64,000 nt of DNA from Gammaproteobacteria bacterium (GCA_013695765.1 JACCZW010000103.1:9781-73780); one strand, 5' to 3'; positions 2,991 to 48,210 are shown, counted from the first letter of the stretch. Translations and numbers: made by a program. Notes: a model not told the origin generated them from the letters alone.

Positions 2991-3575
2991 ATGGCGGAAC
3001 TGGGCGTGCTGCGAGGCGAGCATCGTGTCGAACTGGTTGAGGGAGAGATTGTAGAGATGAGTCCGATCGGCAGTAGGCACGCTGCGTGCGTTACCGCGTG
3101 CAACGATGCATTCCATGCGTGCGCCATCAATGCGGTAATCTGGGTTCAGTGTTCAATTGAATTTCCGTCGCATACCCAGCTGCAGCCGGACGTAGCGCTG
3201 CTGAGGCCCCGCGCGGATCGTTACGCAGCCGGGCTACCCCGGCCGGACGACGTGTTACTGGTGGTCGAAGCCGCCGACAGCAGCCTGGTCTACGACCGCG
3301 ACACGAAAGCGCGGCTTTATGCACGGGCGGGCATCGAGGAATACTGGCTGGTCGACCTCACGCGATCGACACTGTGGATGCATCGCCATCCCGCCGGCGA
3401 ACGCTACACCGCGATGACCGCAATGCAATCCGGCGAAACCGCAAGCCGGCGGCGTTCCCTGCGTGCGCAATTCCGGTCGCCGACATGCTGCCGTGACGAA
3501 CTGTATGGCTCGGGATTAGCATTCCTCACGGAGCTTATCCGATTCATTAGCTCAGAGCCTGCCCTGAGATTCTAG
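2991..3575 (+). CDS. Uma2-family (DUF820) endonuclease with an apparent frameshift near 3446
   Basis: The EIVEMSPIGSRHA and EEYWLVD motifs are present. The in-frame sequence upstream of the called Met (LFTLEDYRRMAELGVL) also matches the family, so the real start is earlier. A -1 shift at the CC run 3446-3447 would restore a canonical C-terminus (PAAFPACAIPVADMLP, stop at 3494-3496). Confidence 0.55.
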   Translation: MAELGVLRGEHRVELVEGEIVEMSPIGSRHAACVTACNDAFHACAINAVIWVQCSIEFPSHTQLQPDVALLRPRADRYAAGLPRPDDVLLVVEAADSSLVYDRDTKARLYARAGIEEYWLVDLTRSTLWMHRHPAGERYTAMTAMQSGETASRRRSLRAQFRSPTCCRDELYGSGLAFLTELIRFISSEPALRF

Positions 3576-3737: not shown

Positions 3738-5681
3738 TTACCGTTTCCCGCTATCGATTTGGTCGCCGTAAATGCCGCGACGCCAGTGCGATTCGATGTA
3801 GCCTGGCAGCGCGCGATCCGAATCGAGGAAATCGCGCCGCAGATTGAAATTCGGATCGGGCTCGGACAGGAAATTCGGCCGCAATACATTGCGACCCTCC
3901 GGCCCATCGATGGTCGTGCTGGCCGCGTACTGCCAGCGCGGTTGACCCACAACATACGCGCCGCCAATCGGCTCCATGCCGACCCGGGGGGTGAGCGGGA
4001 AACTGACCGACAAGCCGCCTGACTGTTGATCATCCTCATCACGCGCATAGAACAGCCCGACGATGACGTCGCCGATGTAGCGACGCAGGATCACGCGGCC
4101 CGCGAGCTGTTCATCGAAGAACCGTCCGGCCGAGAGCGTGACGCTGAGGTCGCGATCCCACCACCAGAAGCGGTACGAACCGATGGCCATGTCACGGTTG
4201 TCGTCAAAATCCTGATTATCGAAGTGCGCGATGTGCGCGTGCAACTGATGCGCGCCCGTCGGCGAGTGCAAGGCGCCTTCGTAATCGAGTACCGTAAAAT
4301 CGGTCTCGCCGAGTTTCTGTATGCCACCGGAGACGCGGCCGACATACGGCGAAAACGGACGATGCGTCCACTGGAGGAAGGCTTCATCCAGACCGCTTTC
4401 CTGCTGCCTGTTTTCGAACGCGCCCCCGTCGTCATAGACATCGGAGCGAAACCCTTCGACCACCCCAGCACCATGCAGGCTCAAACCATGGCCCAGCAAA
4501 ACACTCAAAGTCGATTGCAATGCGACATCGTAGTCGAAGACGCCAAAATCCGTGGCCACCAGCGAATCGATACGGGGTTCGAGCCGCAGTTCGACGCCGA
4601 AGGGCGTACTGCTCTCCTCGGTGAGCCAGTCAACGTCGTCCGCGTCCTGCGCGCCTAGCGCCGAATGCCGCAGACGCAGATCCTCATCCAGCACTGCGGA
4701 CGAGCGCGGGACGCCGTTCTTTTCCTCCAGCAACACCCAGCCGTTGTCGGCGTCCACATCCAGACGCCGCAATACCTGATGAACGACCTGGAAACCATCG
4801 AGCTGGCTATGCCAGAAACGGCGGTTTTCGAACTTGACTACCGTTTGCCCGGCCGCATCCTCGCCGACTCGTACGCGCGATAAACCGGCGTCGGCAAGTC
4901 CATCGGCAATGGCGTCCGCGTTCCGGTCGCGCGTGTCGTTCGCGGCGAGTTCAGGTGCGGATTGCGGTTGTGCGGATTGCGGTTGCGCGTGTGGCCCCCG
5001 CCGCATCTGTCCCGCAGACGCGGTAACTGCCGCAGGCTGCGGAAGCTCAACACGCGGACTGTCGATGACAGGTGCGGGCTTACCCAGAGCGAATCGCAGC
5101 GACAATCCAACGGACACGTCTTCGTCTGCCTCCTCGCTATACAACTTCGTGGCAAGCTCCGCCTCCACGCGGTCAAGCACCTGATACCGCAGCCCAATGC
5201 CCGCGCGCACCGAATCACCGTCGTGATCCACGGCGATCCTGCCCCACTCACCAACATTCAGCGCAACGCCTCCGAACGGGCCGTCAAGGCGATCGGGGCC
5301 CACGCCGTAACCCAGGGTCAGATCAAGCGGGCCGAGTTCGGCCGTACCCACGCCGTAACGTGCTTCAAAATTCTGCGCGTCGCCGGCGAAATCCTGAATG
5401 CCCCCCGCGAGATCGATATGTCTGGTATCTAGAAACCGCCACTTTGCGTTGCCCGACAAATCGTTGCGAATCTGCGCGCCCATCGCGTCTTTCGCCGTAG
5501 CCACGCGCCCGGAGAGCTCCAGACCCGGCAACAGGCTGTACCCCAGGATATAATTTCGCGCGTTGCCGAGTTGGCGGTCCTCAGCCAGAAAATCGTTATT
5601 GCCGTGAATCAATACCTCGTCACTCGGAATCGTGCGTGCATCCGGAATCTCCACCAGCCCGGTCTGACCGGAAAAATTCAA
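3738..5681 (-). CDS. YjbH/GfcD-family outer-membrane polysaccharide-export protein
   Basis: The N-terminal GQTGLVEIPDARTIPSDEVLIHGNND matches the YjbH signature (GGVGLLQTPTAR...). Size (~650-680 aa) and the polysaccharide context also fit. The called start is TTG, and a signal peptide (KRALAATILSTLCLPAFA) is encoded in frame upstream as far as ~5795 without a canonical start codon. Confidence 0.65.
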   Translation of the reverse strand: MNFSGQTGLVEIPDARTIPSDEVLIHGNNDFLAEDRQLGNARNYILGYSLLPGLELSGRVATAKDAMGAQIRNDLSGNAKWRFLDTRHIDLAGGIQDFAGDAQNFEARYGVGTAELGPLDLTLGYGVGPDRLDGPFGGVALNVGEWGRIAVDHDGDSVRAGIGLRYQVLDRVEAELATKLYSEEADEDVSVGLSLRFALGKPAPVIDSPRVELPQPAAVTASAGQMRRGPHAQPQSAQPQSAPELAANDTRDRNADAIADGLADAGLSRVRVGEDAAGQTVVKFENRRFWHSQLDGFQVVHQVLRRLDVDADNGWVLLEEKNGVPRSSAVLDEDLRLRHSALGAQDADDVDWLTEESSTPFGVELRLEPRIDSLVATDFGVFDYDVALQSTLSVLLGHGLSLHGAGVVEGFRSDVYDDGGAFENRQQESGLDEAFLQWTHRPFSPYVGRVSGGIQKLGETDFTVLDYEGALHSPTGAHQLHAHIAHFDNQDFDDNRDMAIGSYRFWWWDRDLSVTLSAGRFFDEQLAGRVILRRYIGDVIVGLFYARDEDDQQSGGLSVSFPLTPRVGMEPIGGAYVVGQPRWQYAASTTIDGPEGRNVLRPNFLSEPDPNFNLRRDFLDSDRALPGYIESHWRRGIYGDQIDSGKR

Positions 5682-6267
5682 CCAGCTATCGCCCGCGAAT
5701 GCCGGGAGGCACAGCGTGGAAAGAATGGTTGCCGCAAGAGCGCGCTTAAGAGATGGAAACGAATGGCGTTGGTTATTATTCGAAAAAGGCCGCGATTATA
5801 ATTGCTTGCACAGCTCAAATATCCCCCAACCGCACGCTTAGCAGCGCGCGGCGCATAAAGAAGCGGCCGAACTCTCTGGCGCGGCCGCCTCGTCAATCTT
5901 TAAGTATTAATTGCAGGCTGAGTGGCACTCCACGATCTCAAAAGCCACTGCCGCCTGCGCTCCCCATTTTTGCCTAACCACCAGTTATCTATGATTGTTC
6001 GCCGCAGCGACAGTGGTTCCTGACGTCGGGGGCATTACACTCGCGCTTTCAGGTCCAGTCAATACACACCCGACGCCACCGCACCAATATTTTTTTAATC
6101 GTCACGCGGCACGCGCGCGATCAGCTCTGCTACGGGCGGTACCCCTCACTTAGGGACACGCGTTAGCGCGGGTATTCCTCCCCAATAATAAGAATTTTTT
6201 ATGCTATTTTCGATAGCTGAAGTGGACCCGGATTCGGACGGTGCCGTAAGGTGCAATCTGTGAGGTT

Positions 6268-6382
6268 GTCATTTCGGAAGGGCCTTGTCATTCCGGGCAG
6301 AAGTCTTGTCATCCCGAGTGGAGCGAGAAATCTTGCTCCCACGCTCTACGATAAGCCTGCATCAAGATCTCTCGCTCCGCTC
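6268..6382. repeat. Tandem and dispersed REP-like repeats (three ~20 bp TTGTCAT[TC]CCG units plus a GGAGCGAGAAATCTTG/CAAGATCTCTCGCTCC hairpin)
   Basis: Read directly from the sequence. Another copy of the core GTCATCCCGAGCGAAG lies at 6528-6552. Confidence 0.55.
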
Positions 6383-6689
6383 AAAATAACAGCTTTTTGA
6401 CTAACGAATCGGCACGATCATGCAAGCGTAGACCGTCAGCAGTCGACAATACGTGAAACCGGGTCAGCCGTACGAGGCGATAAACCATCCCTGCACTGGC
6501 ATATTCCCGCGCGGAAGGACAAAGCACACGTCATCCCGAGCGAAGTCCTGCAAATCCACCGCTCGACGGCAACGTCTTTATCATGCTGCGGACGTTTCCG
6601 CGGAATCCCACCCAGGGAAAACCAGTACGGCCGGATGGCACTTCAATCCCCGGGCGAGAACCTTCGCGCGCTCCACGCCCAAACGAACT

Positions 6690-6839
6690 CTATCGTTCAA
6701 TCGCGGACAGCGTCGCGTGAGGAATCCCCGTCAGCTCCGCAAGCTGGTTCTGGCTTAGTTCCTGAAGCTCGCGGAGTATCCGCACGGATTCACCAACCGA
6801 AACTGTGATTCGATTTCTGGCTGGTTCATACTGACTCAT
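6690..6839 (-). CDS. HTH-XRE family antitoxin (HigA-like), 49 aa
   Basis: The product MSQYEPARNRITVSVGESVRILRELQELSQNQLAELTGIPHATLSAIER is a typical XRE helix-turn-helix. Its ATG immediately follows the stop of the upstream toxin-like ORF (TAGATG). Confidence 0.6.
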   Translation of the reverse strand: MSQYEPARNRITVSVGESVRILRELQELSQNQLAELTGIPHATLSAIER

Positions 6840-7115
6840 CTAAGACCTCCAATAATAGTGGGCATTAATCGATGCGACTTGAAACAGTTGCTCGGCCGGC
6901 GCAACCCGATAGATAATTCGGTACTGTCGGCTCAGACGCGACGACCGGTAACCATTCCACTTACCAGACAGCGCCTCATCATGAAAGCCTTTGATAAGTC
7001 GAAGTCCAGACGGCCCCGATATAGCTGCGACATCTTCCCACTTTCATATCGCTTGAGGATGTCGATCGGGATGGCGGCAACCTGCCTATCAACCCGGCGA
7101 TGCTCCTCAATCCAC
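6840..7115 (-). pseudogene. HigB/RelE-superfamily toxin, apparently frameshifted
   Basis: The C-terminal 62 aa (…LSGKWNGYRSSRLSRQYRIIYRV…INAHYYWRS) matches the HigB killer-protein motif (GxWSxRVxGNWRxxF…DYH). The middle of the protein (GLIGRLPPSRSTSSSDM) is in a second frame. No single ORF spans the gene. Confidence 0.4.
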
Positions 7116-7240
7116 CATCAGCCAGCGCCGTAGGATTAGAAGACAAAATTTCCCCGCAGGCACTGCCCTGGTTGTTTGAGCCGTACAATGGTGATAGGTT
7201 AGCCGTACGGTGATTCGGGGCACGGTTCAGGGTGACACTC

Positions 7241-7477
7241 ATGGAAACTAATAAGCTAACGGTTCGACTGCCTGCAAGTGAGATCCGATTTATAAAGGAT
7301 TTCGCAAAGCGTCACGGTATAACCGTAACAGAAGTTATTCGCCGTTATTTTACGCGACTCCAGGCGCCTCAGCTCAGCGCTATTCATCCTGAGATCGCAA
7401 AGCTCACCGGAAATATTCCGTCCAAGATCGATGCGATAGCCGAACATCAGGGGCACCTCTACGATAAGCATCGATGA
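7241..7477 (+). CDS. Ribbon-helix-helix (CopG/VapB-like) antitoxin
   Basis: KLTVRLPASEIRFIKDFAKRHGITVTEVIRR is an RHH fold. The gene overlaps the downstream PIN gene by 4 bp (ATGA). An alternative start is at 7232. Confidence 0.6.
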   Translation: METNKLTVRLPASEIRFIKDFAKRHGITVTEVIRRYFTRLQAPQLSAIHPEIAKLTGNIPSKIDAIAEHQGHLYDKHR

Positions 7478-7899
7478 AGGTGCTGTTCGATCTCAACGTT
7501 TTCCTGGATGTACTACAGGAACGCCAGCCGCATTACCCATCATCAGCGGCCGCCTTGAGCAGAGCATTGACCGACGATGTCGCCGGCGTATTTCCCGCGC
7601 ATGGCGTTACCACGCTCTATTATCTTGTCGCACGACACGTGAGCAAATCGCGTGCGGATCGTCTGGTGGACTGGTTAATCCGTCGCTTCGATATTGCGCC
7701 CGTAGAGCAGGCGACGCTCGTACGGGCACGAAGCCTTAAGATGAAGGATTTTGAAGATGCGGTGGTAGCCAGCGCCGCGGAACTCACCGCATGCAGCCTG
7801 ATCGTCACGCGCAATATCGCCGACTTTACTTGCTCCTCGGTTAGGGCGCTCTCGCCCGAGGAGTTCCTGGAAAGTTGGTCGGCAAACACGAGTACATAA
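7474..7899 (+). CDS. vapC: PIN-domain toxin VapC
   Basis: The N-terminal MKVLFDLNVFLD carries the PIN first acidic residue; FEDAVVASAA and IVTRNIADF are also typical. Confidence 0.75.
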   Translation: MKVLFDLNVFLDVLQERQPHYPSSAAALSRALTDDVAGVFPAHGVTTLYYLVARHVSKSRADRLVDWLIRRFDIAPVEQATLVRARSLKMKDFEDAVVASAAELTACSLIVTRNIADFTCSSVRALSPEEFLESWSANTST

Positions 7900-7929
7900 G
7901 ATTGCCCTTGCCCAAAGTGGTGCGAGGGC

Positions 7930-8002
7930 ACCCGCTCAGACCGGCAGCCCCTTCTCCCGCCGCTCGATCTCTTTCATTTTGAGCACGATCACGTATTGGT
8001 AG
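7930..8002. repeat. Direct repeat, copy 1 (~75 bp, 88% identical to copy 2 at 8826-8903)
   Basis: CCCGCTCAGACCGGCAGCCCCTTCTCCCGCCGCTCGATCTCTTTCATTTTGAGCACGATCACGTATTGGTAG here versus ...CAGACAGGCAGAGCCCTTTCTCCCGCCGCTCAATCTCTTTCATCTTCAGCACGATCATGTATTGGTAG in copy 2. Confidence 0.7.
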
Positions 8003-8092
8003 TTCGCCACCGGTGGGAATAAGTTATAAGTCGCTTGAGCTGATCGTGGCGCTTGGCCGTTGCTCCCGAAGCCTTCAGCCTACGCGATGATG

Positions 8093-8413
8093 CTATTCGG
8101 AGATCCGATAGAAATTACCAGGTTGGACTTGCGGCAAAATTTGTCGAACTTCGGACATTAACGGTATAAGCACGTCAATGTCGTTGCTCAGCGCGACTAG
8201 TACTATGACCGAGATCGGTAACGCCGATAGGTTTTGTTGATGTTGCAGGTTCTGATCCACCGTCAGGAATACGTCGAAGCAGTCAGCCGCGTGCCGGAGT
8301 AAATCGCCATTCTTGATGCCGCCCCAACCTTGTTCCTCAACGGTGCGTACTTCATGCTCCGGCAACTGCTGACGCAACCGTCGAGGTACGCACTCGTCAA
8401 GCAGCACGCGCAT
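8093..8413 (-). CDS. DUF5615 (PIN-like) protein, the partner of DUF433
   Basis: MRVLLDECVPRRLRQQLPEHEV…FLTVDQNL matches the DUF5615 pattern MRxLxDENxP. Confidence 0.65.
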   Translation of the reverse strand: MRVLLDECVPRRLRQQLPEHEVRTVEEQGWGGIKNGDLLRHAADCFDVFLTVDQNLQHQQNLSALPISVIVLVALSNDIDVLIPLMSEVRQILPQVQPGNFYRISE

Positions 8414-8636
8414 TAGCTATGAGAATGCGCTTCGCCTCTTCCAAAGCGGCAACAGCTTGCTCCCGCTTTACAGTTGGGAAATCATCGAGAAACTCAGCCA
8501 ACGAATGTCCACCTTCGAAGTAATCGATCAACGCGTTCACAGGAACGCGCGTACCCACAAACACAGGCGTACCGCCTAGAATGTCCGGATCGCTGTGAAT
8601 AATGTGGTGCTCACCTGTGGCATTCTCTTGTGACAT
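8397..8636 (-). CDS. DUF433-domain protein (putative antitoxin)
   Basis: The DPDILGGTPVFVGTRVPV signature is present. It overlaps the downstream DUF5615 gene by 17 bp. Confidence 0.65.
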   Translation of the reverse strand: MSQENATGEHHIIHSDPDILGGTPVFVGTRVPVNALIDYFEGGHSLAEFLDDFPTVKREQAVAALEEAKRILIANARAA

Positions 8637-8825
8637 GATAAATCACCTGCTTAGAAACCATCCCAAGAAAACTACACCAGAGACCGCAACAAAGCTAGCG
8701 AGTTGAGCACGGGCAACCGCGCATGGGCTCTTGCGAATCTGGAGGAATCCGCCAGATCGCATGAGCCATCAAGCTACCTTTGGCCCAATCTGGCGCATTT
8801 CAAGCCGTCTAGCGCTTCACCCTTT

Positions 8826-8903
8826 ACCCGCCGCTCAGACAGGCAGAGCCCTTTCTCCCGCCGCTCAATCTCTTTCATCTTCAGCACGATCATGTATTGG
8901 TAG
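8826..8903. repeat. Direct repeat, copy 2
   Basis: See copy 1. The two copies flank the DUF433/DUF5615 pair. Confidence 0.7.
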
Positions 8904-9056
8904 ATTGCCAGCAGGTGACAATTGCTGGCGGATCCGCGGCAACCCGATGACGCAGCAGTCCCTCGGCCATGGGACTACGGCAGATGTTTCCGGTGCAGAC
9001 CATGAGGATGGATTGCACGGGCCTCCAGTGCAGCAACCAATTGGCGAACGCTTATA

Positions 9057-9326
9057 CTACGCGGCCCGAAGTGGGGCTAATTCGCTGTCCTGCATGGGTG
9101 GTAGCCCGAGCTTGACGAGTACGTGATTGAGATCTGCTATGGTTACATTCGCCGGCGCGGTAATCTCTATTCCTATGGGATTTCCCCCTTGGCCAAAATC
9201 GATGACCATCCCGGCTTCGCCTTTTGACGTGCGATAGCTTCTATCACTGGCTTTTCGTGGCAAATACAGGTACGCGGCAAGCGCAGTGCCGCGCCGGAAA
9301 GTAACTTCTAAGTAGGCTTCTTTCAT
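9057..9326 (-). CDS. DUF2283-family protein
   Basis: LEVTFRRGTALAAYLYL…GMVIDFGQGGNPIGIEI matches the DUF2283 pattern YDxEADALYIRL…GIEIL. Confidence 0.6.
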   Translation of the reverse strand: MKEAYLEVTFRRGTALAAYLYLPRKASDRSYRTSKGEAGMVIDFGQGGNPIGIEITAPANVTIADLNHVLVKLGLPPMQDSELAPLRAA

Positions 9327-9327
9327 A

Positions 9328-9549
9328 TTAATTTTCCCAAACCGGGTAGGCGGTTACGACTACAAGCAGGTTACAGGCAACATCCGGTTCTACAACAATC
9401 TCCCAGCCGCGTTTTTTGTGGCGTGTCTCTATCAGCCAGCGGCCCGCGACAATGTCTTGACGATACAAGCTGGCACGCTCCAACATCGCCCTCAAATCTA
9501 TTTCGTTGAATCGACGATCTTCCATACGCTTGAGCAAATGAGGAGTCAA
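9328..9549 (-). CDS. DUF4258-domain protein (putative toxin partner of DUF2283)
   Basis: HLLKRMEDRRFNEIDLRAML…NLLVVVTAYP is present. There is a 1 bp gap to the DUF2283 gene. Confidence 0.6.
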   Translation of the reverse strand: MTPHLLKRMEDRRFNEIDLRAMLERASLYRQDIVAGRWLIETRHKKRGWEIVVEPDVACNLLVVVTAYPVWEN

Positions 9550-9831
9550 CTCCAGTTCCCATTCCCACCACTCTGGCCATCACTGTTTTCCCAGAACTAC
9601 CCCCAATAGAATTAGTTATATAACGCATGGACGGACAATACCCGAAAGCGCCTCTCTTCGGCGAATTTAGAACCGTCCTTAATGTCCTTGTATATAATTT
9701 ATACAAAGTCAGAATGGGTTGCCTGCGGTAGCGCGCGGAAGCCACCTGCCAAATTCTATCGCATCTTGGAATGTGTAATGCTTACGGCTGACGGACGTAG
9801 AAAGCGCGCGACCTGATCGAGACTTCCACCC

Positions 9832-10587
9832 ATGTTCAAGGACCATTTTTCGCGACACGCCGACGCTTATGCCGGACACCGGCCCGATTATCCGGCGGCG
9901 CTATTCGATTACCTGGCGACGGGGGCGGGTGCGCGCGAGGTGGCCTGGGATGTTGCGACCGGCAACGGACAGGCCGCACTTGCACTTGCGCGCCACTTCG
10001 CACAAGTGTGGGCAACCGACGCCAGCGCGGAGCAGATTCGCGCGGCCACGCCTCATCAACGCGTTGCTTACGGCGTCGCACCCGCCGAGACAAGCGGACT
10101 CGAATCCGCGTCGGTCGATCTGATCACTGTCGCGCAGGCGCTGCACTGGTTAGATCTGCCGCGTTTCTATGCCGAAGTGCTACGCGTGCTGCGACCCGGC
10201 GGCGTGATCGCAGTGTGGTGTTATCACCTAATATCGGTGAGCCCGGAGGTGGATCGCGTGCTGGCGCATTTCTACGCCGACACGATCGGCGCCGACTGGC
10301 CGCCCGAACGCCGGTTGGTCGAGGACGGTTACCGTTCGCTTGAATTCCCGTTCGCGGAAATTCAGGACGCGCCCGCTTTCTCGATCGAACGACTCTGGAG
10401 CGTCGAGCAGGTTTTGAATTACGTCAGCACCTGGTCCGCCGTCCAGCGGTATCAGCGCCGGCTGGGCGTCGATCCAGTCGAAGCCCATCTCGCGCCCGCG
10501 TTGCGCGGTACATGGGGAGACCGCAACCGGCAGCGCCAGGTAGGCTGGCCCATCCTTCTGCGGCTCGGCATTCACCGCCCAGCATAG
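9832..10587 (+). CDS. Class I SAM-dependent methyltransferase
   Basis: Motif I (VAWDVATGNGQAA) and WATDASAEQI are present, as in the Methyltransf_11 family. Confidence 0.8.
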   Translation: MFKDHFSRHADAYAGHRPDYPAALFDYLATGAGAREVAWDVATGNGQAALALARHFAQVWATDASAEQIRAATPHQRVAYGVAPAETSGLESASVDLITVAQALHWLDLPRFYAEVLRVLRPGGVIAVWCYHLISVSPEVDRVLAHFYADTIGADWPPERRLVEDGYRSLEFPFAEIQDAPAFSIERLWSVEQVLNYVSTWSAVQRYQRRLGVDPVEAHLAPALRGTWGDRNRQRQVGWPILLRLGIHRPA

Positions 10588-10632
10588 AACCAACCCCCAA
10601 AACTTATCTCGCCCATTCTGAACACAGCGACG

Positions 10633-10840
10633 ACTTTGTCCTGCTGAGTACAATGACGACCTTTGTCCTGCCGAGTACAGCGGCCACCTTTGTCATTCTG
10701 AGCGGAGCGAAGAATCTGACGTGTTTAACCGACGCAAAGCAGATGCTTCGTTCCACTCAGCATGACGGGTTCGTTTCACTTCGCATGGGTTCGTTTCACT
10801 TCGCATGACCCAGGAATGTAATTCTGAGTAAAGCGAAGCC
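10633..10840. repeat. Composite REP-like repeat block (3 units of ~27 bp CTTTGTC[CA]T[GT]C[TC]GAGTACA plus 2 units of 21 bp GGGTTCGTTTCACTTCGCATG)
   Basis: Tandem units read directly from the sequence. It contains GTCATTCTGAGCGGAGCGAAGAATCTGAC. Confidence 0.6.
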
Positions 10841-10850
10841 TGGCCAGCGT

Positions 10851-11900
10851 TCACGCCTCGCTGTGAACCGCCACACCGCGCGGCTGCTCGAACCAGCCGC
10901 GCGTGGCGTTCACCACGCGCACCAGCGCCAGCATCACCGGCACTTCCACCAGCACGCCCACGACGGTCGCCAGCGCCGCGCCGGAATTTAATCCGAACAG
11001 ACTGATAGCCACCGCCACCGCGAGTTCGAAGAAATTCGAGGTGCCAATGAGCGCCGAAGGCCCGGCGATGTCGGCCGGCAACCGCCATAGCTTTCCCCAC
11101 CAGTACGCAAGCGCGAAGATGCCAACGGTTTGAATAATCAGCGGGATCGCGATCAGTACGATAACCAGCGGCTGCGCCAGCAAGGTACCGCCCTGAAAAC
11201 CGAATAGCAGCATCACGGTCGCGATCAGGCTGATTATCGTCCACGGCGTCAGGCGCGCCGAAAACGTTTGCACGCGTGGCTCCCCGCCACGGCTCATGAG
11301 CGCCGCGCGGGTCAGACCGCCGGCGGTGAGCGGAATCACCACGTACAACAGCACCGACAGCAGCAGCGTTTCCCACGGCACGATCACGTTCGTCACGCCC
11401 AGCAGCAGCGCCACGATGGGCGCGAACGCGAAGATCATGATGATGTCGTTGACCGCCACCTGCACCAAGGTATACGTGGCGTCGCCGCGGGTGAGCTGGC
11501 TCCAGACGAACACCATCGCCGTGCATGGTGCCGCGCCCAGCAGAATCATGCCGGCGATGTACTGCTGCGCGCTTTGTGGATCGACTAGATCGCGAAATAC
11601 GTATTCGAAGAACAGCACGGCGAGCCCGGCCATCGTAAACGGCTTGATCAGCCAGTTGACCACGACGGTGATGATCGTGCCTTTTGGCCGGTCGCCGATA
11701 TGCGCCAGCGAGGCGAAATCGACCTTGACCATCATCGGATAAATCATGATCCAGATCAGCACGGCGACCACGAGGTTGACGTTCGCGATCTCAAGGTTAC
11801 TCAACTTTGAGAACAACCCTGGGAACAGATTGCCCACCGCCGTGCCGGCCACGATGGCGGCCGTTATCCAAAGAGTTAAATAACGCTCGAACAGGCTCAT
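10851..11900 (-). CDS. arsB: ACR3-family arsenite efflux transporter
   Basis: [12 protein letters not shown] is the ACR3 N-terminal signature. The 349 aa product is polytopic. Confidence 0.9.
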
Positions 11901-12406
11901 GCCACGCGCCCCTGGTCGTCGCCGATCTCATTCAGGCGGCGTTGCAGACTCATGCGATCCAATGACGTGATGGGCAGTTGCGTGAAGATCCGGATGCGGC
12001 GCTCCAATTCGTAATACGCGGTGCGGAACGCGCGCTGTTGCCGCTGCTCATCGCCCTCGACCGCGGCCGGGTCCACCATTCCCCAGTGCGCGGACATGGG
12101 CTGGCCCGGCCACGCCGGACAGACTTCCCGGGCCGCGCTGTCGCACACAGTGAACACAAAATCCAGCACTGGCGCGTGCGGCGCGGCGAACTCATCCCAG
12201 CTCTTGCTGCGCAGTCCATTCGTGGACAAATTCATGCGCTCGAACAGTCGCAGCGCCAGCGGATGCACTTCGCCCGTCGGATGGCTGCCGGCACTGTACG
12301 CACGGAGACGGCCGAGCCCTAAGCGATTGAGCAACACCTCGCCCATGATGCTGCGCGCCGAGTTACCGGTGCAGAGAAACAGAACGTTGTAGGATTCTTC
12401 GGTCAT
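11897..12406 (-). CDS. arsC: Arsenate reductase, LMW-PTP type (thioredoxin-coupled)
   Basis: [17 protein letters not shown] is the CX5R P-loop. The probable start is MTEESYN at 12406. Confidence 0.85.
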
Positions 12407-12422
12407 GGTTCCACTCGATTTA

Positions 12423-12803
12423 TCAGGGATTCGCCCGCCTGCGCGCGGCGGAACGACGCGACGAAGACTTCGCGCCCGAAGCGCCTGTATCGCATAGCGG
12501 AATTGCACAGTCCTGAAGTTGCCCTTGGCAACAGTTCTCGGTCAGGTAGGCCAGCACCGCGTTCATCGCCTCGAAGTCGGCGGTATAAATAAGCGAACGG
12601 CCGTCGCGGCGCTTGCGCACCAGGTGCGCGTGCCTCAGGGCGCTCAAATGAAACGACAACGTCGCGCCCGGCAGTCCCAGCCGCGCCGCGATATCGCCGG
12701 CTGGCGCGCCCGCCGCGCCCTGCTGCATGAGATACCGAAACACATCCAGACGGCTCTCGTGCGCCAGCGCGCTGAGCGCGGCAATGACCCATTCCTTTTC
12801 CAT
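12423..12803 (-). CDS. arsR: ArsR-family metalloregulator
   Basis: The HTH is LDVFRYLMQQGAAGAPAGDIAARLGLPGATLSFHLSALRHAHLV. The C-terminal CCx5C (NCCQGQLQDC) resembles the Acidithiobacillus-type As(III) site. Confidence 0.85.
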   Translation of the reverse strand: MEKEWVIAALSALAHESRLDVFRYLMQQGAAGAPAGDIAARLGLPGATLSFHLSALRHAHLVRKRRDGRSLIYTADFEAMNAVLAYLTENCCQGQLQDCAIPLCDTGASGAKSSSRRSAARRRANP

Positions 12804-17632: not shown

Positions 17633-19209
17633 ATGAGATATGCACTGGCCGCCATAATGCTGACCGGCTCGATCGGCACAGCCGGCGCGAACGACTTCCC
17701 GGAGACACGGAATTCACTCTCACTCGAACCGATCGGCACCTACGCCACCGGCGTGTTCGACGGTTCGGCGGCCGAGATTGCCGCGTTTGATCCCACGACG
17801 AAGCGCGTGTTTGTGGTTAACGCCGAGGCCAACGCGGTGGACGTGCTGGACATCCGCAATCCACGCCGCCTGACCTTGCTGTTCTCTATCGAAATGGCGC
17901 CGTATGGCACGGTCACCAACAGCGTGGACGTTGATCGCAACGTCGTCGCGATCGCGGTCGAGAACGAGGTCAAGACCGATCCGGCAGGGCCGTGTTCTTC
18001 AACGTCAATGGCCGTTATCTGAGCGACGTGACGGTAGGGGCGCTGCCGGACATGCTGACCTTCACCCCCAATGGCCGCAAATTACTGGTCGCCAACGAGG
18101 GCGAGCCGGATGACACCTATACTGTCGATCCAGAAGGCTCGGTCAGCATAGTCGATCTGCGCGGCAACGTGCGCGCGCTTTCGCAACGCCAGGTGACGAC
18201 CGCGAATTTCCGTCGTTTCAACAGGGCGGACATCGACCCGGATATACGCATCTTCGGGCCGGGCGCGAGTGTCGCGCAGGACCTGGAGCCCGAGTACATC
18301 GCGATCTCGCAAGATTCGCGCGCCGCCTGGGTCAGCCTGCAGGAAAGTAACGCACTCGCGTTGCTAGACATCGAGGCCGGCCGCATCGATAAGCTCATCG
18401 CGCTCGGTTTCAAAGATCACAGCCAGGCGCGCAACGCGCTGGACGCGAGCAACGAAGACGGCGGCATCAACATCGAGTCCTGGCCGATCCGCGGCATGTA
18501 TCAGCCCGACGCGATCGCCGCGTACAGCACCCGGGGCGAAAGCTACATCGTTACCGCCAACGAGGGCGACGCGCGCGATTACGATGGTTTCAGCGAGGAG
18601 ACGACCGTCGGCGAACTTGTGCTGGACCCAGCGGTGTTCCCCGATGCCGCGGAACTCCAATTGCCCGAGAATCTCGGCGTTCTAACGACCACCACGGCCA
18701 CGGGCGACGCCAATAACAATGGCGTGTTCGAGGAGATTTACGCCTTTGGCGCGCGTTCGTTCTCGATTCGCGACGCGCGCGGCAAGCTGATCTACGACAG
18801 TGGTGTCGAATTTGAGCGCATCACGGCAAGGCTGCTGCCCGACGAGTTCAATTCGGATAATACCGAAAACGATTCTTTCGACGACCGCAGTGACGCCAAA
18901 GGTCCCGAGCCCGAGGGCGTAGACATCGGACGCGCGTTCGGACGTCAGTATGCTTTCATCGGTCTGGAGAGAGTCGGCGGCATCATGGTGTACGACATCA
19001 GCGATCCTCGAGATGTGCGCTTCGTGGACTACGTCAACAACCGCGATTTCGATGGCGACGCGGAAGCCGGCACTGCGGGCGATCTTGGTCCTGAAGGCGT
19101 ACTGTTCATCTCCAGCGGTGACAGTCCGATCAATGTGCCGCTGCTCATCGTCGCCAACGAGGTCAGCGGCACGACGACCGTATTCCGGATTAATCGCGAG
19201 CAGGATTGA
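17633..19209 (+). CDS. Choice-of-anchor-I family beta-propeller protein (frameshift near 17988)
   Basis: Two adjacent ORFs (17561-18022 and 17992-19209) read through as ...EVKTDPAG|AVFFNVNGRYL...LTFTPNGRKLLVANEGEPDD. The signal peptide is MRYALAAIMLTGSIGTAGA. Confidence 0.55.
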
Positions 19210-41045: not shown

Positions 41046-41150
41046 TTAATGATTTATTATGAAATATGAAATTGGCGATGCGATCATGATACCATCGCGC
41101 GCCTGTCGATGCAGGCAACGGAGGCAATGCAGTTTCACAGCTCCCTTCGT

Positions 41151-48112: not shown

Positions 48113-48210
48113 GTGCCCTGAGTTTGTCTAAAAGACAGGCTCCGCGACTGAAGAATCTTGCCCCACCTCAAGCATTAATACGGATTCTTCGTTTCACTCA
48201 GAATGACAAC
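48113..48210. repeat. REP-like element (GTGCCCTGAG…GACAGGCTCCG ; GATTCTTCGTTTCACTCAGAATGAC)
   Basis: Shares the GTCATTCTGAGTGAAACGAAG core (as reverse complement) with 3622-3645 and 10700. Confidence 0.55.

What the first reader, a model, noticed from the sequence alone, without database searches (positions are those of the whole stretch)
5897..9830. Stack of four type-II TA-like modules in a lower-GC patch
Within 3 kb there are four modules in series: a HigB-like toxin plus XRE antitoxin, an RHH antitoxin plus VapC PIN toxin, DUF433 plus DUF5615 (PIN-like), and DUF4258 plus DUF2283. Each pair is translationally coupled (overlap or 1-bp gap; TAGATG for the first). Local GC drops to ~50% in places, and ~800 bp of repeat-rich non-coding DNA lies upstream (5897-6690). 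This looks like a TA/defence islet inserted between the polysaccharide genes and a methyltransferase.
Basis: partly seen in the sequence, partly recalled or inferred. Interest (0 to 1): 0.55.

Follow-up and report, generated by a model that had tools for sequence, protein, structure and literature searches.

The report
Decaying toxin-antitoxin cluster in eroded polysaccharide locus
This is an ordinary cluster of small toxin-antitoxin gene pairs, two intact, one damaged and one dead, sitting among leftover pieces of sugar-polymer genes in an uncultured soil bacterium; its one unusual feature is that copies of one gene's tail end separate the pairs.

Summary
Two pairs look fully intact: DUF6364/PIN_3 VapBC-like (7232-7899, +) and DUF433/DUF5615 (8093-8636, -). 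The DUF4258/DUF2283 pair (9057-9606, -) is a conserved mobile pair, but its toxin has an in-frame TGA at codon 9 of the long form. The "HigB-like/XRE" pair (6581-7155, -) is a relic: the XRE domain is split by a frameshift, and the RelE/StbE-like toxin lies in at least three frames with no start codon. All lesions are identical in 5-8 independent metagenome assemblies.

The block has the lowest GC of any 4-kb stretch in the window (53.4% against 60.2%). Three relatives (69-73% YjbH identity) lack these modules; two carry unrelated TA sets near yjbH.

The "non-coding" DNA and the spacers hold host-gene debris: a 5' fragment of a tyrosine-phosphatase gene and three direct copies of the last ~25-30 codons of a family-2 glycosyltransferase gene. 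These tail copies bracket the cassettes. The same tail abuts other TA modules in three further loci. No PADLOC model matched, so "defence" is unsupported.

Verdict: a known kind of thing, of low interest. The tail-bounded arrangement is an unexplained minor lead.

The parts
5682..6400 (.). Spacer between yjbH and the cassettes. It holds short MITE/REP-like repeats (GTCATYCYGAG at 6308 and 6530; a 29-nt inverted repeat at 6307-6335 / 6363-6391). The lipoprotein gene that precedes yjbH in relatives is missing here.
6401..6500 (-). GT2 glycosyltransferase 3'-tail fragment, copy c1. It is degenerate, has an in-frame stop, lacks the last ~15 codons, and corresponds to about aa 245-263 of a 278-aa GT2.
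   Evidence: (D3)
6581..6839 (-). XRE/HTH_3 antitoxin relic, split by a frameshift near 6690-6700 (49-aa ORF at 6690-6839, remainder at 6581-6697).
6840..7155 (-). RelE/StbE-like toxin relic in at least three reading frames, with no start codon. Its stop TAG abuts the ATG of the XRE relic.
7232..7477 (+). DUF6364 (RHH/RelB-like) antitoxin candidate, VapB-like. Gene callers use the ATG at 7241.
7474..7899 (+). PIN_3 VapC-type toxin, 141 aa. The full-length domain is present and the acidic residues D6, D95 and D117 are conserved with Slr8014.
7928..8009 (-). GT2 tail fragment, copy c2 (…YQYVIVLKMKEIERREKGLPV*). It keeps the native stop codon and about 10 nt of 3' flank.
   Evidence: (D1)
8093..8413 (-). 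DUF5615 (Mut7-C-type PIN-like) toxin candidate, 106 aa.
8397..8636 (-). DUF433 (COG2442) antitoxin candidate, 79 aa. It overlaps the toxin gene by 17 nt.
8737..8799 (.). Palindromes 100-160 nt upstream of the DUF433 gene. The operator role is inferred only.
8831..8925 (-). GT2 tail fragment, copy c3 (…IYQYMIVLKMKEIERREKGL…, stop codon lost). It is fused directly to the phosphatase gene fragment.
8932..9036 (-). 5' fragment (about 35 codons, CX5R loop) of a low-molecular-weight protein-tyrosine phosphatase gene (Wzb-like). The 48-aa ORF spans 8890-9036.
9057..9326 (-). DUF2283-like 89-aa partner (antitoxin/immunity candidate) of the DUF4258 toxin.
9328..9606 (-). DUF4258 BECR-type toxin gene. 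The long form (TTG 9606) is interrupted by TGA at 9580-9582. A 73-aa ORF from TTG 9549 remains.
9683..9711 (.). 12-nt inverted repeat (TGTCCTTGTATA / TATACAAAGTCA) about 80 nt upstream of the DUF4258 long-form start. The operator role is inferred only.

Best explanation
The block is a chromosomal accumulation of four small type II toxin-antitoxin (TA) operons. They were acquired horizontally and now sit at a variable, eroded end of an exopolysaccharide (EPS) gene cluster in an uncultured soil bacterium.

How each unit works (inferred from family knowledge, not shown here):
- A stable toxin is held inactive by a labile partner made from the same tightly coupled transcript. The toxin is a PIN-domain RNase in modules 2 and 3 and a BECR-fold RNase in modules 1 and 4.
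- Loss of the operon, or arrest of its expression, frees the toxin. This makes the DNA hard to lose.

Current state of the units:
- VapBC-like and DUF433/DUF5615 appear functional.
- The DUF4258 toxin is truncated or attenuated by a nonsense codon.
- The RelE-XRE unit is dead.

The cassettes lie downstream of copies of the 3' tail of a family-2 glycosyltransferase (GT2) gene and beside a truncated phosphatase gene. So the surrounding EPS genes were deleted or rearranged around the TA modules.
For: - Domain content and coupling.
- PIN acidic residues are conserved with Slr8014, an experimentally validated RNase toxin (PMC4963859).
- DUF433-PIN is a predicted TA family (PMC2701414, PMC5499597). 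The toxin is 48% identical to a pSYSG homologue with the same 17-nt overlap.
- DUF4258 is classed as a BECR / RelE-ParE superfamily toxin (PMC11980606). The AF2 model (pLDDT 92) has an alpha-alpha-beta4 topology. Its top-ranked PDB matches are HigB2, HigB, a CDI toxin and RelE, though none is significant.
- The DUF4258 then DUF2283 pair recurs with a 1-nt gap in unrelated loci, and as fused ORFs.
- GC is the lowest in the window.
- Relatives lack the block, or carry unrelated TA sets near yjbH.
- Host-gene fragments lie inside the block.
- The lesions are fixed in 5-8 independent assemblies.
Against: - No toxicity or neutralisation data exist for any of these proteins.
- The Pfam scores for DUF4258 (25.8 against 25.0) and DUF2283 (23.4 against 23.0) are marginal when taken alone.
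- The DUF2283-like partner has no recognisable DNA-binding fold and no significant PDB match, so autoregulation of module 4 is unexplained.
- No close relative with an empty site was found, so horizontal acquisition rests on composition and on non-conservation among distant relatives (69-73% YjbH identity).
- No mobility gene lies in the window.
Confidence: 0.75

Rival explanations
1. The array is the product of site-specific, repeated integration at the 3' end of the GT2 gene. Each cassette, or the decayed integrative element it came from, brought or displaced a copy of the last ~85 nt of the gene. This gives tail-cassette-tail arrays, as at tRNA-gene islands or, more loosely, integron cassettes, with the recombinase now lost or encoded elsewhere.
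For: - Three direct tail copies bracket the cassettes.
- c2 and c3 are only 89% identical, about as divergent from each other as from copies in other organisms (84-87%). This argues against a recent local duplication.
- Seven tail fragments from at least four lineages begin within aa 242-258 of a 278-aa protein and end about 10 nt after the stop codon.
- The same tail abuts different TA cargo in L023 (VapC | tail | ORF239-HicBA | tail), L021 and L036 (GT4 | tail | Gp49-HTH).
Against: - No integrase was found in the window (weak tests).
- No copy is attached to an intact GT2 body in any TA-bearing locus.
- There is no hairpin or attC-like structure (z-scores -0.5 to -1.3).
- No match was found in viral contigs.
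- No presence/absence polymorphism was seen among about 15 contigs of this population.
- Ascertainment is biased, because the fragments were found by searching for the tail motif.
- c1 and the L021 copy extend further 5'.
Confidence: 0.15
2. The block is an active anti-phage defence island, in which the TA modules act as abortive-infection systems.
For: - TA modules cluster in defence islands, for example on Synechocystis pSYSG, where homologues of modules 2 and 3 sit beside type I R-M genes (PMC4963859).
- The Uma2 gene nearby hits the PADLOC candidate PDC-S03.
Against: - None of the six TA proteins matches any PADLOC model.
- No R-M, CRISPR, Abi or other recognised defence gene lies in or next to the block.
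- One module is dead, a second is damaged, and a subpopulation carries a frameshift in the DUF5615 toxin. That pattern points to relaxed selection.
Confidence: 0.07
3. The frameshifts and the stop codon are assembly or sequencing artefacts, and all four modules are intact.
For: None beyond the general possibility.
Against: The exact sequence around each lesion occurs in 5-8 distinct contigs from independent short-read assemblies (ENA megahit, NCBI, JGI, Logan). These are 99.8-100% identical with no indels across the region.
Confidence: 0.01

Closest known systems
VapBC type II TA systems of the PIN_3 subgroup, e.g. Ssr8013-Slr8014 of Synechocystis plasmid pSYSG
   Same: The toxin is 141 aa with a full PIN_3 domain, and D6, the DFED motif and TR..DF are conserved with Slr8014. 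A small upstream antitoxin gene overlaps the toxin gene. Slr8014 is an RNase toxin neutralised by its antitoxin (PMC4963859).
   Different: Identity is only 26.5-29%. The antitoxin here is DUF6364 (RHH/RelB-like), not DUF2281. No papers on DUF6364 were found. Nothing has been tested.
DUF433 (COG2442) - PIN-like (COG4634/DUF5615/PIN_10) predicted TA, e.g. ssl8008-sll8007 of pSYSG and VapBC45 (Rv2018/Rv2019)
   Same: It has the same two domains, the same antitoxin-then-toxin order and an identical 17-nt overlap. The toxin is 48% identical to sll8007, and the D6-E7 and T-x-D-Q motifs are conserved (PMC2701414, PMC5499597).
   Different: The location is chromosomal, inside an EPS locus rather than a plasmid defence island. 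A subpopulation carries a C-terminal frameshift variant.
DUF4258 BECR-fold toxins (RelE/ParE superfamily; reassigned to the colicin-like branch / Ntox49)
   Same: It is 60-75% identical to more than 100 proteins that carry PF14076. It has the alpha-alpha-beta4 fold. The partner gene lies downstream, as reported for E. coli DUF4258 loci (PMC11980606, PMC10790755, bioRxiv 10.64898/2026.08.28.747851).
   Different: The partner is an 89-aa DUF2283-like protein, not HicB or MqsA. No paper in the library mentions both domains. The toxin here carries a premature TGA.
HigBA / RelE-XRE modules (toxin first, XRE antitoxin second)
   Same: The gene order is the same, with a TAGATG junction.
   Different: Both genes are disrupted. 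The HigB-like Pfam score is below its cut-off.
Integron cassette arrays / CALINs, and tandem genomic islands at the 3' ends of genes
   Same: Small promoter-proximal cassettes rich in TA genes are separated by direct repeats. The repeats equal the 3' end of a gene, as at tRNA-gene islands (the comparison rests on my general knowledge).
   Different: There is no attC-like imperfect palindrome and no IntI or other tyrosine recombinase in the window. The repeat is a protein-coding tail, and the gene body is missing.

Membership tests
VapBC (PIN-domain type II TA) | Toxin with a complete PIN domain and its conserved acidic residues | tested here: met
   PIN_3 scores 62.6 bits over profile positions 1-115 of 115. 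D6, D95 and D117 align with Slr8014.
VapBC (PIN-domain type II TA) | Small DNA-binding antitoxin gene immediately upstream and translationally coupled | tested here: met
   DUF6364 scores 43.7 bits, and there is a weak RelB_antitoxin match. The genes share an ATGA overlap at 7474-7477.
VapBC (PIN-domain type II TA) | Toxin inhibits growth and the antitoxin neutralises it | not testable with these tools
   This needs expression assays.
DUF433-PIN(COG4634/DUF5615) predicted TA | DUF433 gene followed by an overlapping Mut7-C-type PIN-like gene | tested here: met
   DUF433 scores 65.6 bits and DUF5615 scores 31.2 bits. The 17-nt overlap is identical to that of pSYSG ssl8008/sll8007.
DUF4258 (BECR) toxin family | Sequence membership in PF14076 | tested here: met
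   The score is 25.8 bits against a cut-off of 25.0. It is 60-75% identical to many proteins with a precomputed PF14076 hit.
DUF4258 (BECR) toxin family | BECR / RelE-like fold | tested here: inconclusive
   The AF2 model has pLDDT 92 and an alpha-alpha-beta4 topology. The top Foldseek hits are HigB2 (TM 0.56), HigB, a CDI toxin and RelE, but none has E <= 0.001.
DUF4258 (BECR) toxin family | Intact full-length ORF | tested here: not met
   TGA at 9580-9582 interrupts the long form. The conserved WPEWWEWELE motif lies between that stop and the only remaining start, TTG 9549. About a third of homologues are 74-aa short forms that begin 2 codons upstream of TTG 9549, so residual function is possible.
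DUF4258-DUF2283 as a two-gene module | The pair is conserved in unrelated genomic contexts | tested here: met
   L032 and L033-L035 have the same order, the same 1-nt gap and an 89-aa partner that is 60% identical. Fusion-like proteins P0290 and P0266 also exist.
HigBA / RelE-XRE TA | Intact toxin and antitoxin ORFs | tested here: not met
   A frameshift splits HTH_3. The toxin lies in at least three frames without a start codon.
HigB-like toxin (PF05015) | Score above the Pfam gathering threshold | tested here: not met
RelE_StbE TIGR02385 scores 29.2 against 27.9.
Integron cassette array / CALIN | attC sites (imperfect palindromes with R''/L''-L'/R' boxes) between cassettes | tested here: not met
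   The inter-cassette repeats are direct coding-tail fragments. They fold no better than shuffled sequence (z-scores -0.5 to -1.3).
Integron cassette array / CALIN | IntI integrase nearby (for a complete integron) | tested here: not met
   There is no tyrosine-recombinase motif and no phmmer hit in the 64-kb window. Both are weak tests.
Integrase-mediated island at the 3' end of a gene | Direct repeats equal to the 3' end of the target gene flanking the inserted DNA | tested here: met
   Tail copies c3, c2 and c1 flank the cassettes.
Integrase-mediated island at the 3' end of a gene | An intact target gene at one end, and an integrase gene | tested here: not met
   No GT2 body and no integrase were found in the window, L021, L023 or L036.
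Known anti-phage defence systems (PADLOC-DB 2.0) | Any component matches a PADLOC model | tested here: not met
   There were 0 families for all six proteins.

The most novel reading that the evidence does not exclude
The last ~85 nt of a conserved EPS family-2 glycosyltransferase gene may be a recombination or attachment site. Small integrase-less TA cassettes would be captured there repeatedly, producing tail-cassette-tail arrays in several soil lineages. This would be an integron-like gene-capture hotspot anchored on a protein-coding 3' end rather than on attC or attI sites.
Probability: 0.1. Interest if true: 0.6.

Novelty: new member of a known kind. Interest (0 to 1): 0.25.

Why it matters
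As a TA cluster it matters little. Stacks of VapBC, DUF433-PIN and RelE-type modules in low-GC patches are routine in environmental bacteria.

Two points have modest value:
- The DUF4258 to DUF2283-like pairing is a well-conserved, mobile two-gene module. It is not described in the literature I could search. Its partner protein has no recognisable DNA-binding fold and no solved structural relative.
- The cassettes are bracketed by copies of a glycosyltransferase gene's tail, with similar 5' boundaries in several lineages. If this reflects site-specific capture, it would show how TA modules colonise and outlive polysaccharide loci.

The locus also illustrates TA decay in situ: one module is dead, one carries a nonsense mutation, and one is polymorphic for a frameshift.

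Tried and rejected
- Sequencing error as the cause of the frameshifts: rejected.
- tRNA or tmRNA as an att site: the only tRNA is at 41140.
- Rfam families in the block: none at gathering score, and only chance-level hits at E <= 1.
- The repeat as an integron attC or a structured element: no inverted repeat and no excess folding energy.
- The repeat as the N-terminus of the lipoprotein gene that precedes yjbH in relatives: no.
- Genome-contig scans with YjbH and with the tail pattern: both empty, so the organism could not be named and no isolate relative was found.
- Viral contigs scanned for the tail: none.
- Plasmid collection searched for the module 4 proteins: none.
- PDB sequence search for four proteins: only a weak DUF433 hit, 2ga1.
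- Foldseek on the DUF2283-like model: nothing meaningful.
- The L021 modules are not orthologues of the window's modules.
- The 239-aa ORFs of L023 and L033 are unrelated.
- Promoter and terminator scans were no better than shuffled sequence.

Full report
**What is at the coordinates.** ORF listing and Pfam scans show four two-gene units between 6581 and 9606.
- Module 2 (+ strand) is DUF6364 (7232-7477, 43.7 bits, with a weak RelB-antitoxin match) followed by a 141-aa PIN_3 protein (7474-7899, 62.6 bits over the whole profile). The genes overlap by ATGA.
- Module 3 (- strand) is DUF433 (8397-8636, 65.6 bits) followed by DUF5615, a Mut7-C-type PIN-like protein (8093-8413, 31.2 bits). They overlap by 17 nt.
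- Module 4 (- strand) is DUF4258 (9328-9549, 25.8 bits against a cut-off of 25.0) followed, after a 1-nt gap, by an 89-aa DUF2283-like protein (9057-9326, 23.4 bits against 23.0).

**Module 1 is a relic.**
- The XRE ORF (6690-6839) ends after 49 aa in the middle of its helix-turn-helix. The rest of the domain is encoded in another frame at 6581-6697. Only the joined sequence covers HTH_3 positions 2-54 of 55, at 48.8 bits.
- The toxin has no ATG, GTG or TTG start. Its recognisable parts lie in three frames: 7111-7155, 7034-7117 and 6840-7043.
- Joined, the toxin parts reach the RelE_StbE model TIGR02385 (29.2 bits, cut-off 27.9), and the match spans the junction between the second and third frames. 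HigB-like scores only 15.6 bits.
- In architecture the unit is HigBA-like (toxin first, XRE second). In family it is RelE/StbE-like, and it is dead.

**Module 4 is damaged.**
- The DUF4258 protein belongs to a tight family: 307 hits at 60-75% identity. Most are 87-90 aa with an N-terminal W-P-x-W-W-x-W-E-L-E motif, and about a third are 74-aa forms that start just after it.
- In the window the long form is all there: TTG at 9606, then GVVLGKQ, then TGA at 9580-9582, then WPEWWEWELE in frame. The stop leaves only TTG 9549 as a start, giving 73 aa. Gene callers on other contigs called 65 or 52 aa.
- The toxin is therefore either inactivated or reduced to a short form.

**The lesions are real.** The block occurs at 99.8-100% identity, with no indels across the lesions, in contigs from ENA, NCBI, JGI and Logan assemblies. 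The exact sequence around the XRE frameshift, the RelE frameshift and the DUF4258 TGA is found in 5, 8 and 8 distinct contigs respectively. A subpopulation (L005, L026) also carries a 1-nt indel that replaces the conserved C-terminus of DUF5615.

**Composition.** GC of 5897-9830 is 53.4%, against 60.2% for the window, 59.5% to the left and 62.0% to the right. It is the lowest of 301 sliding 4-kb windows. The modules range from 51.8% to 54.7%, and 9550-9831 is 49.3%.

**The "non-coding" DNA is host-gene debris plus short repeats.**
- TRF finds no tandem array in 5897-6690. There are GTCATYCYGAG-type short repeats and one 29-nt inverted repeat.
- A direct repeat occurs three times: 6401-6500 (degenerate), 7928-8009 and 8831-8925.
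- A metagenome scan for its coding pattern found an intact 278-aa family-2 glycosyltransferase (L025 123-959, PF00535) that ends …YEYMIVLKMKEIERREKGLPI*.
- tblastn maps the three window copies to about aa 245-263, 258-278 and 252-276 of that protein.
- Full-length annotated GT2 genes with this C-terminus sit in EPS/O-antigen clusters of Shinella and others.
- Between c2 and c3, four of five substitutions in the 19 shared codons are synonymous (sequences). This fits descent from coding DNA.
- Copy c3 is fused to a 35-codon 5' fragment of a low-molecular-weight tyrosine-phosphatase gene (8932-9036, LMWPc profile positions 1-25 of 144). An intact LMWPc gene lies in the yjbH cluster of one relative.
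- To the left, yjbH itself has lost the start codon of its signal peptide, and the lipoprotein gene that precedes it in relatives is missing.

**Relatives.** No isolate genome matched. Three metagenomic relatives with 69-73% YjbH identity were examined.
- L022 has Uma2-YjbH-lipoprotein as in the window, followed by phasin, BrnT/BrnA and MNT/HEPN.
- L021 has YjbH followed by HEPN/MNT, TumE with its partner, DUF433, and an 84-aa ORF with DUF2283. Then come one GT2 tail fragment and further EPS genes.
- The third relative has Wza and Wzc after YjbH and no TA genes.
- The L021 proteins that share Pfam families with the window's are not detectably similar to them by BLASTP.
- The block is therefore not conserved, and the region near yjbH is a recurrent TA landing zone with independent content.

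**The tail-TA association.**
- In tail-coding orientation the window reads: phosphatase fragment | c3 | DUF433-DUF5615 | c2 | VapCB (inverted), RelE'-XRE' | c1.
- L023, from the same soil project, reads: VapC | tail | ORF239-HicB-HicA | tail.
- L036, from an unrelated high-GC lineage, reads: GT4 | 31-codon tail | Gp49-HTH_37.
- L021 reads: hexapeptide transferase | tail | TA stack.
- All seven fragments start within aa 242-258 and stop about 10 nt beyond the stop codon. None is attached to a GT2 body.
- c2 and c3 (89% identical) are about as divergent from each other as from the L021 and L023 copies (84-87%).
- This resembles att-site duplication by integrative elements that target a gene's 3' end. 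Against that reading: the repeats have no palindromic structure, I found no recombinase in the window and no copy in viral contigs, and the population shows no presence/absence polymorphism.
- Some other tail-only ORFs in the database are contig-end or frameshift artefacts (L028, L029), while L031 is a true stand-alone tail without TA genes.
- I treat site-specific capture as a minority hypothesis (about 0.1-0.15).

**Mechanism.**
- Shown here: domain identities, coupling, conserved catalytic residues, recurrence of the pairs, and the lesions.
- Inferred from family knowledge: the PIN toxins cleave RNA. Slr8014, a 26.5-29% identical homologue, degrades mRNA and is neutralised by its antitoxin (PMC4963859).
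- DUF433-PIN is a predicted TA family (PMC2701414, PMC5499597). The module 3 toxin is 48% identical to pSYSG sll8007 and has the same 17-nt overlap.
- DUF4258 is a BECR-fold toxin of unknown target (PMC11980606; bioRxiv 10.64898/2026.08.28.747851). Its AF2 model (pLDDT 92) has two helices and a four-stranded sheet, and ranks HigB2, HigB, a CDI toxin and RelE at the top. The Foldseek E-values are not significant.
- Its partner recurs downstream with a 1-nt gap in unrelated loci, is 60% identical there, and is occasionally fused to the toxin. Its confident model (pLDDT 92.5, five strands plus two helices) matches nothing solved. It probably neutralises by direct binding rather than acting as a classic DNA-binding antitoxin.
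- Palindromes upstream of modules 3 and 4 are candidate operators.

**Defence.** None of the six proteins matches a PADLOC model, and no recognised defence gene adjoins the block. The decay pattern argues for relaxed selection rather than active defence.

**Verdict.** It lies in an eroded, variable end of an EPS locus. All the families are known. The DUF4258/DUF2283-like pairing and the glycosyltransferase-tail brackets are the only points beyond routine.

**Limits.** There is no experimental data, no close relative with an empty site, and no taxonomic assignment. The search for mobility genes was weak.

Noticed in passing
window 5682-5790 and 3738-5681 (-): Homology of yjbH to the signal-peptide region of relatives continues in frame upstream of the annotated TTG start (5681). 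There is no canonical start codon after the preceding stop (~5790). The gene may therefore lack its signal peptide or be a pseudogene. The lipoprotein gene that precedes yjbH in three relatives is absent.
   Followed up: partly
window 6285-6391, 6530-6545, 10624-10809, 48192-48207: There are short GTCATYCYGAGYGNAG repeats, a 29-nt inverted repeat, and 27-nt x3 and 20-nt x3 tandem repeats between the methyltransferase and ACR3 genes. They look like a MITE/REP-like dispersed element, and L021 is also full of similar sequences.
   Followed up: partly
window 10851-12792 (-): An arsenic resistance operon (ArsR-like, LMW-PTP-type ArsC, ACR3/SBF arsenite pump) lies convergent with the methyltransferase gene (9832-10587). 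A di-haem oxidoreductase, an imelysin and a porin gene follow.
   Followed up: no
window 2991-3575 (+): The Uma2-family putative endonuclease next to yjbH matches the PADLOC candidate defence family PDC-S03 (E = 3.6e-12). It is conserved beside yjbH in relative L022.
   Followed up: no
L005 684-1016; L026 96-428 (corresponds to window 8093-8130): A subpopulation carries a 1-nt indel that replaces the conserved C-terminal ~14 residues of the DUF5615 toxin (110 aa instead of 106 aa). This suggests ongoing decay of module 3 as well.
   Followed up: partly
L021 12976-17561: A relative with 69% YjbH identity has a different TA stack after yjbH: HEPN/MNT, a HEPN fragment, TumE with an HVO_A0114/MarR partner, DUF433, and an 84-aa ORF with DUF2283. 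The stack ends at a single GT2 tail fragment (17980-18092) that starts 10 nt after a hexapeptide-transferase gene.
   Followed up: partly
L033 2051-2970, L034, L035: In another lineage the DUF4258/DUF2283 pair sits immediately downstream of a HicB-like 67-aa gene and an uncharacterised 239-aa ORF. That ORF is unrelated to the 239-aa ORF of L023.
   Followed up: partly
protein database: All 108 database proteins that match the GT2 C-terminal tail profile are shorter than 108 aa, and no full-length GT2 was returned. Some are contig-end or frameshift artefacts. Others (L031, L036) are true stand-alone tails. The absence of full-length hits is unexplained.
   Followed up: partly
window 9683-9711 and 8737-8799: There are palindromes upstream of modules 4 and 3: TGTCCTTGTATA/TATACAAAGTCA and ATCTGGAGGA/TCCGCCAGAT. 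They could be autoregulatory operators.
   Followed up: no
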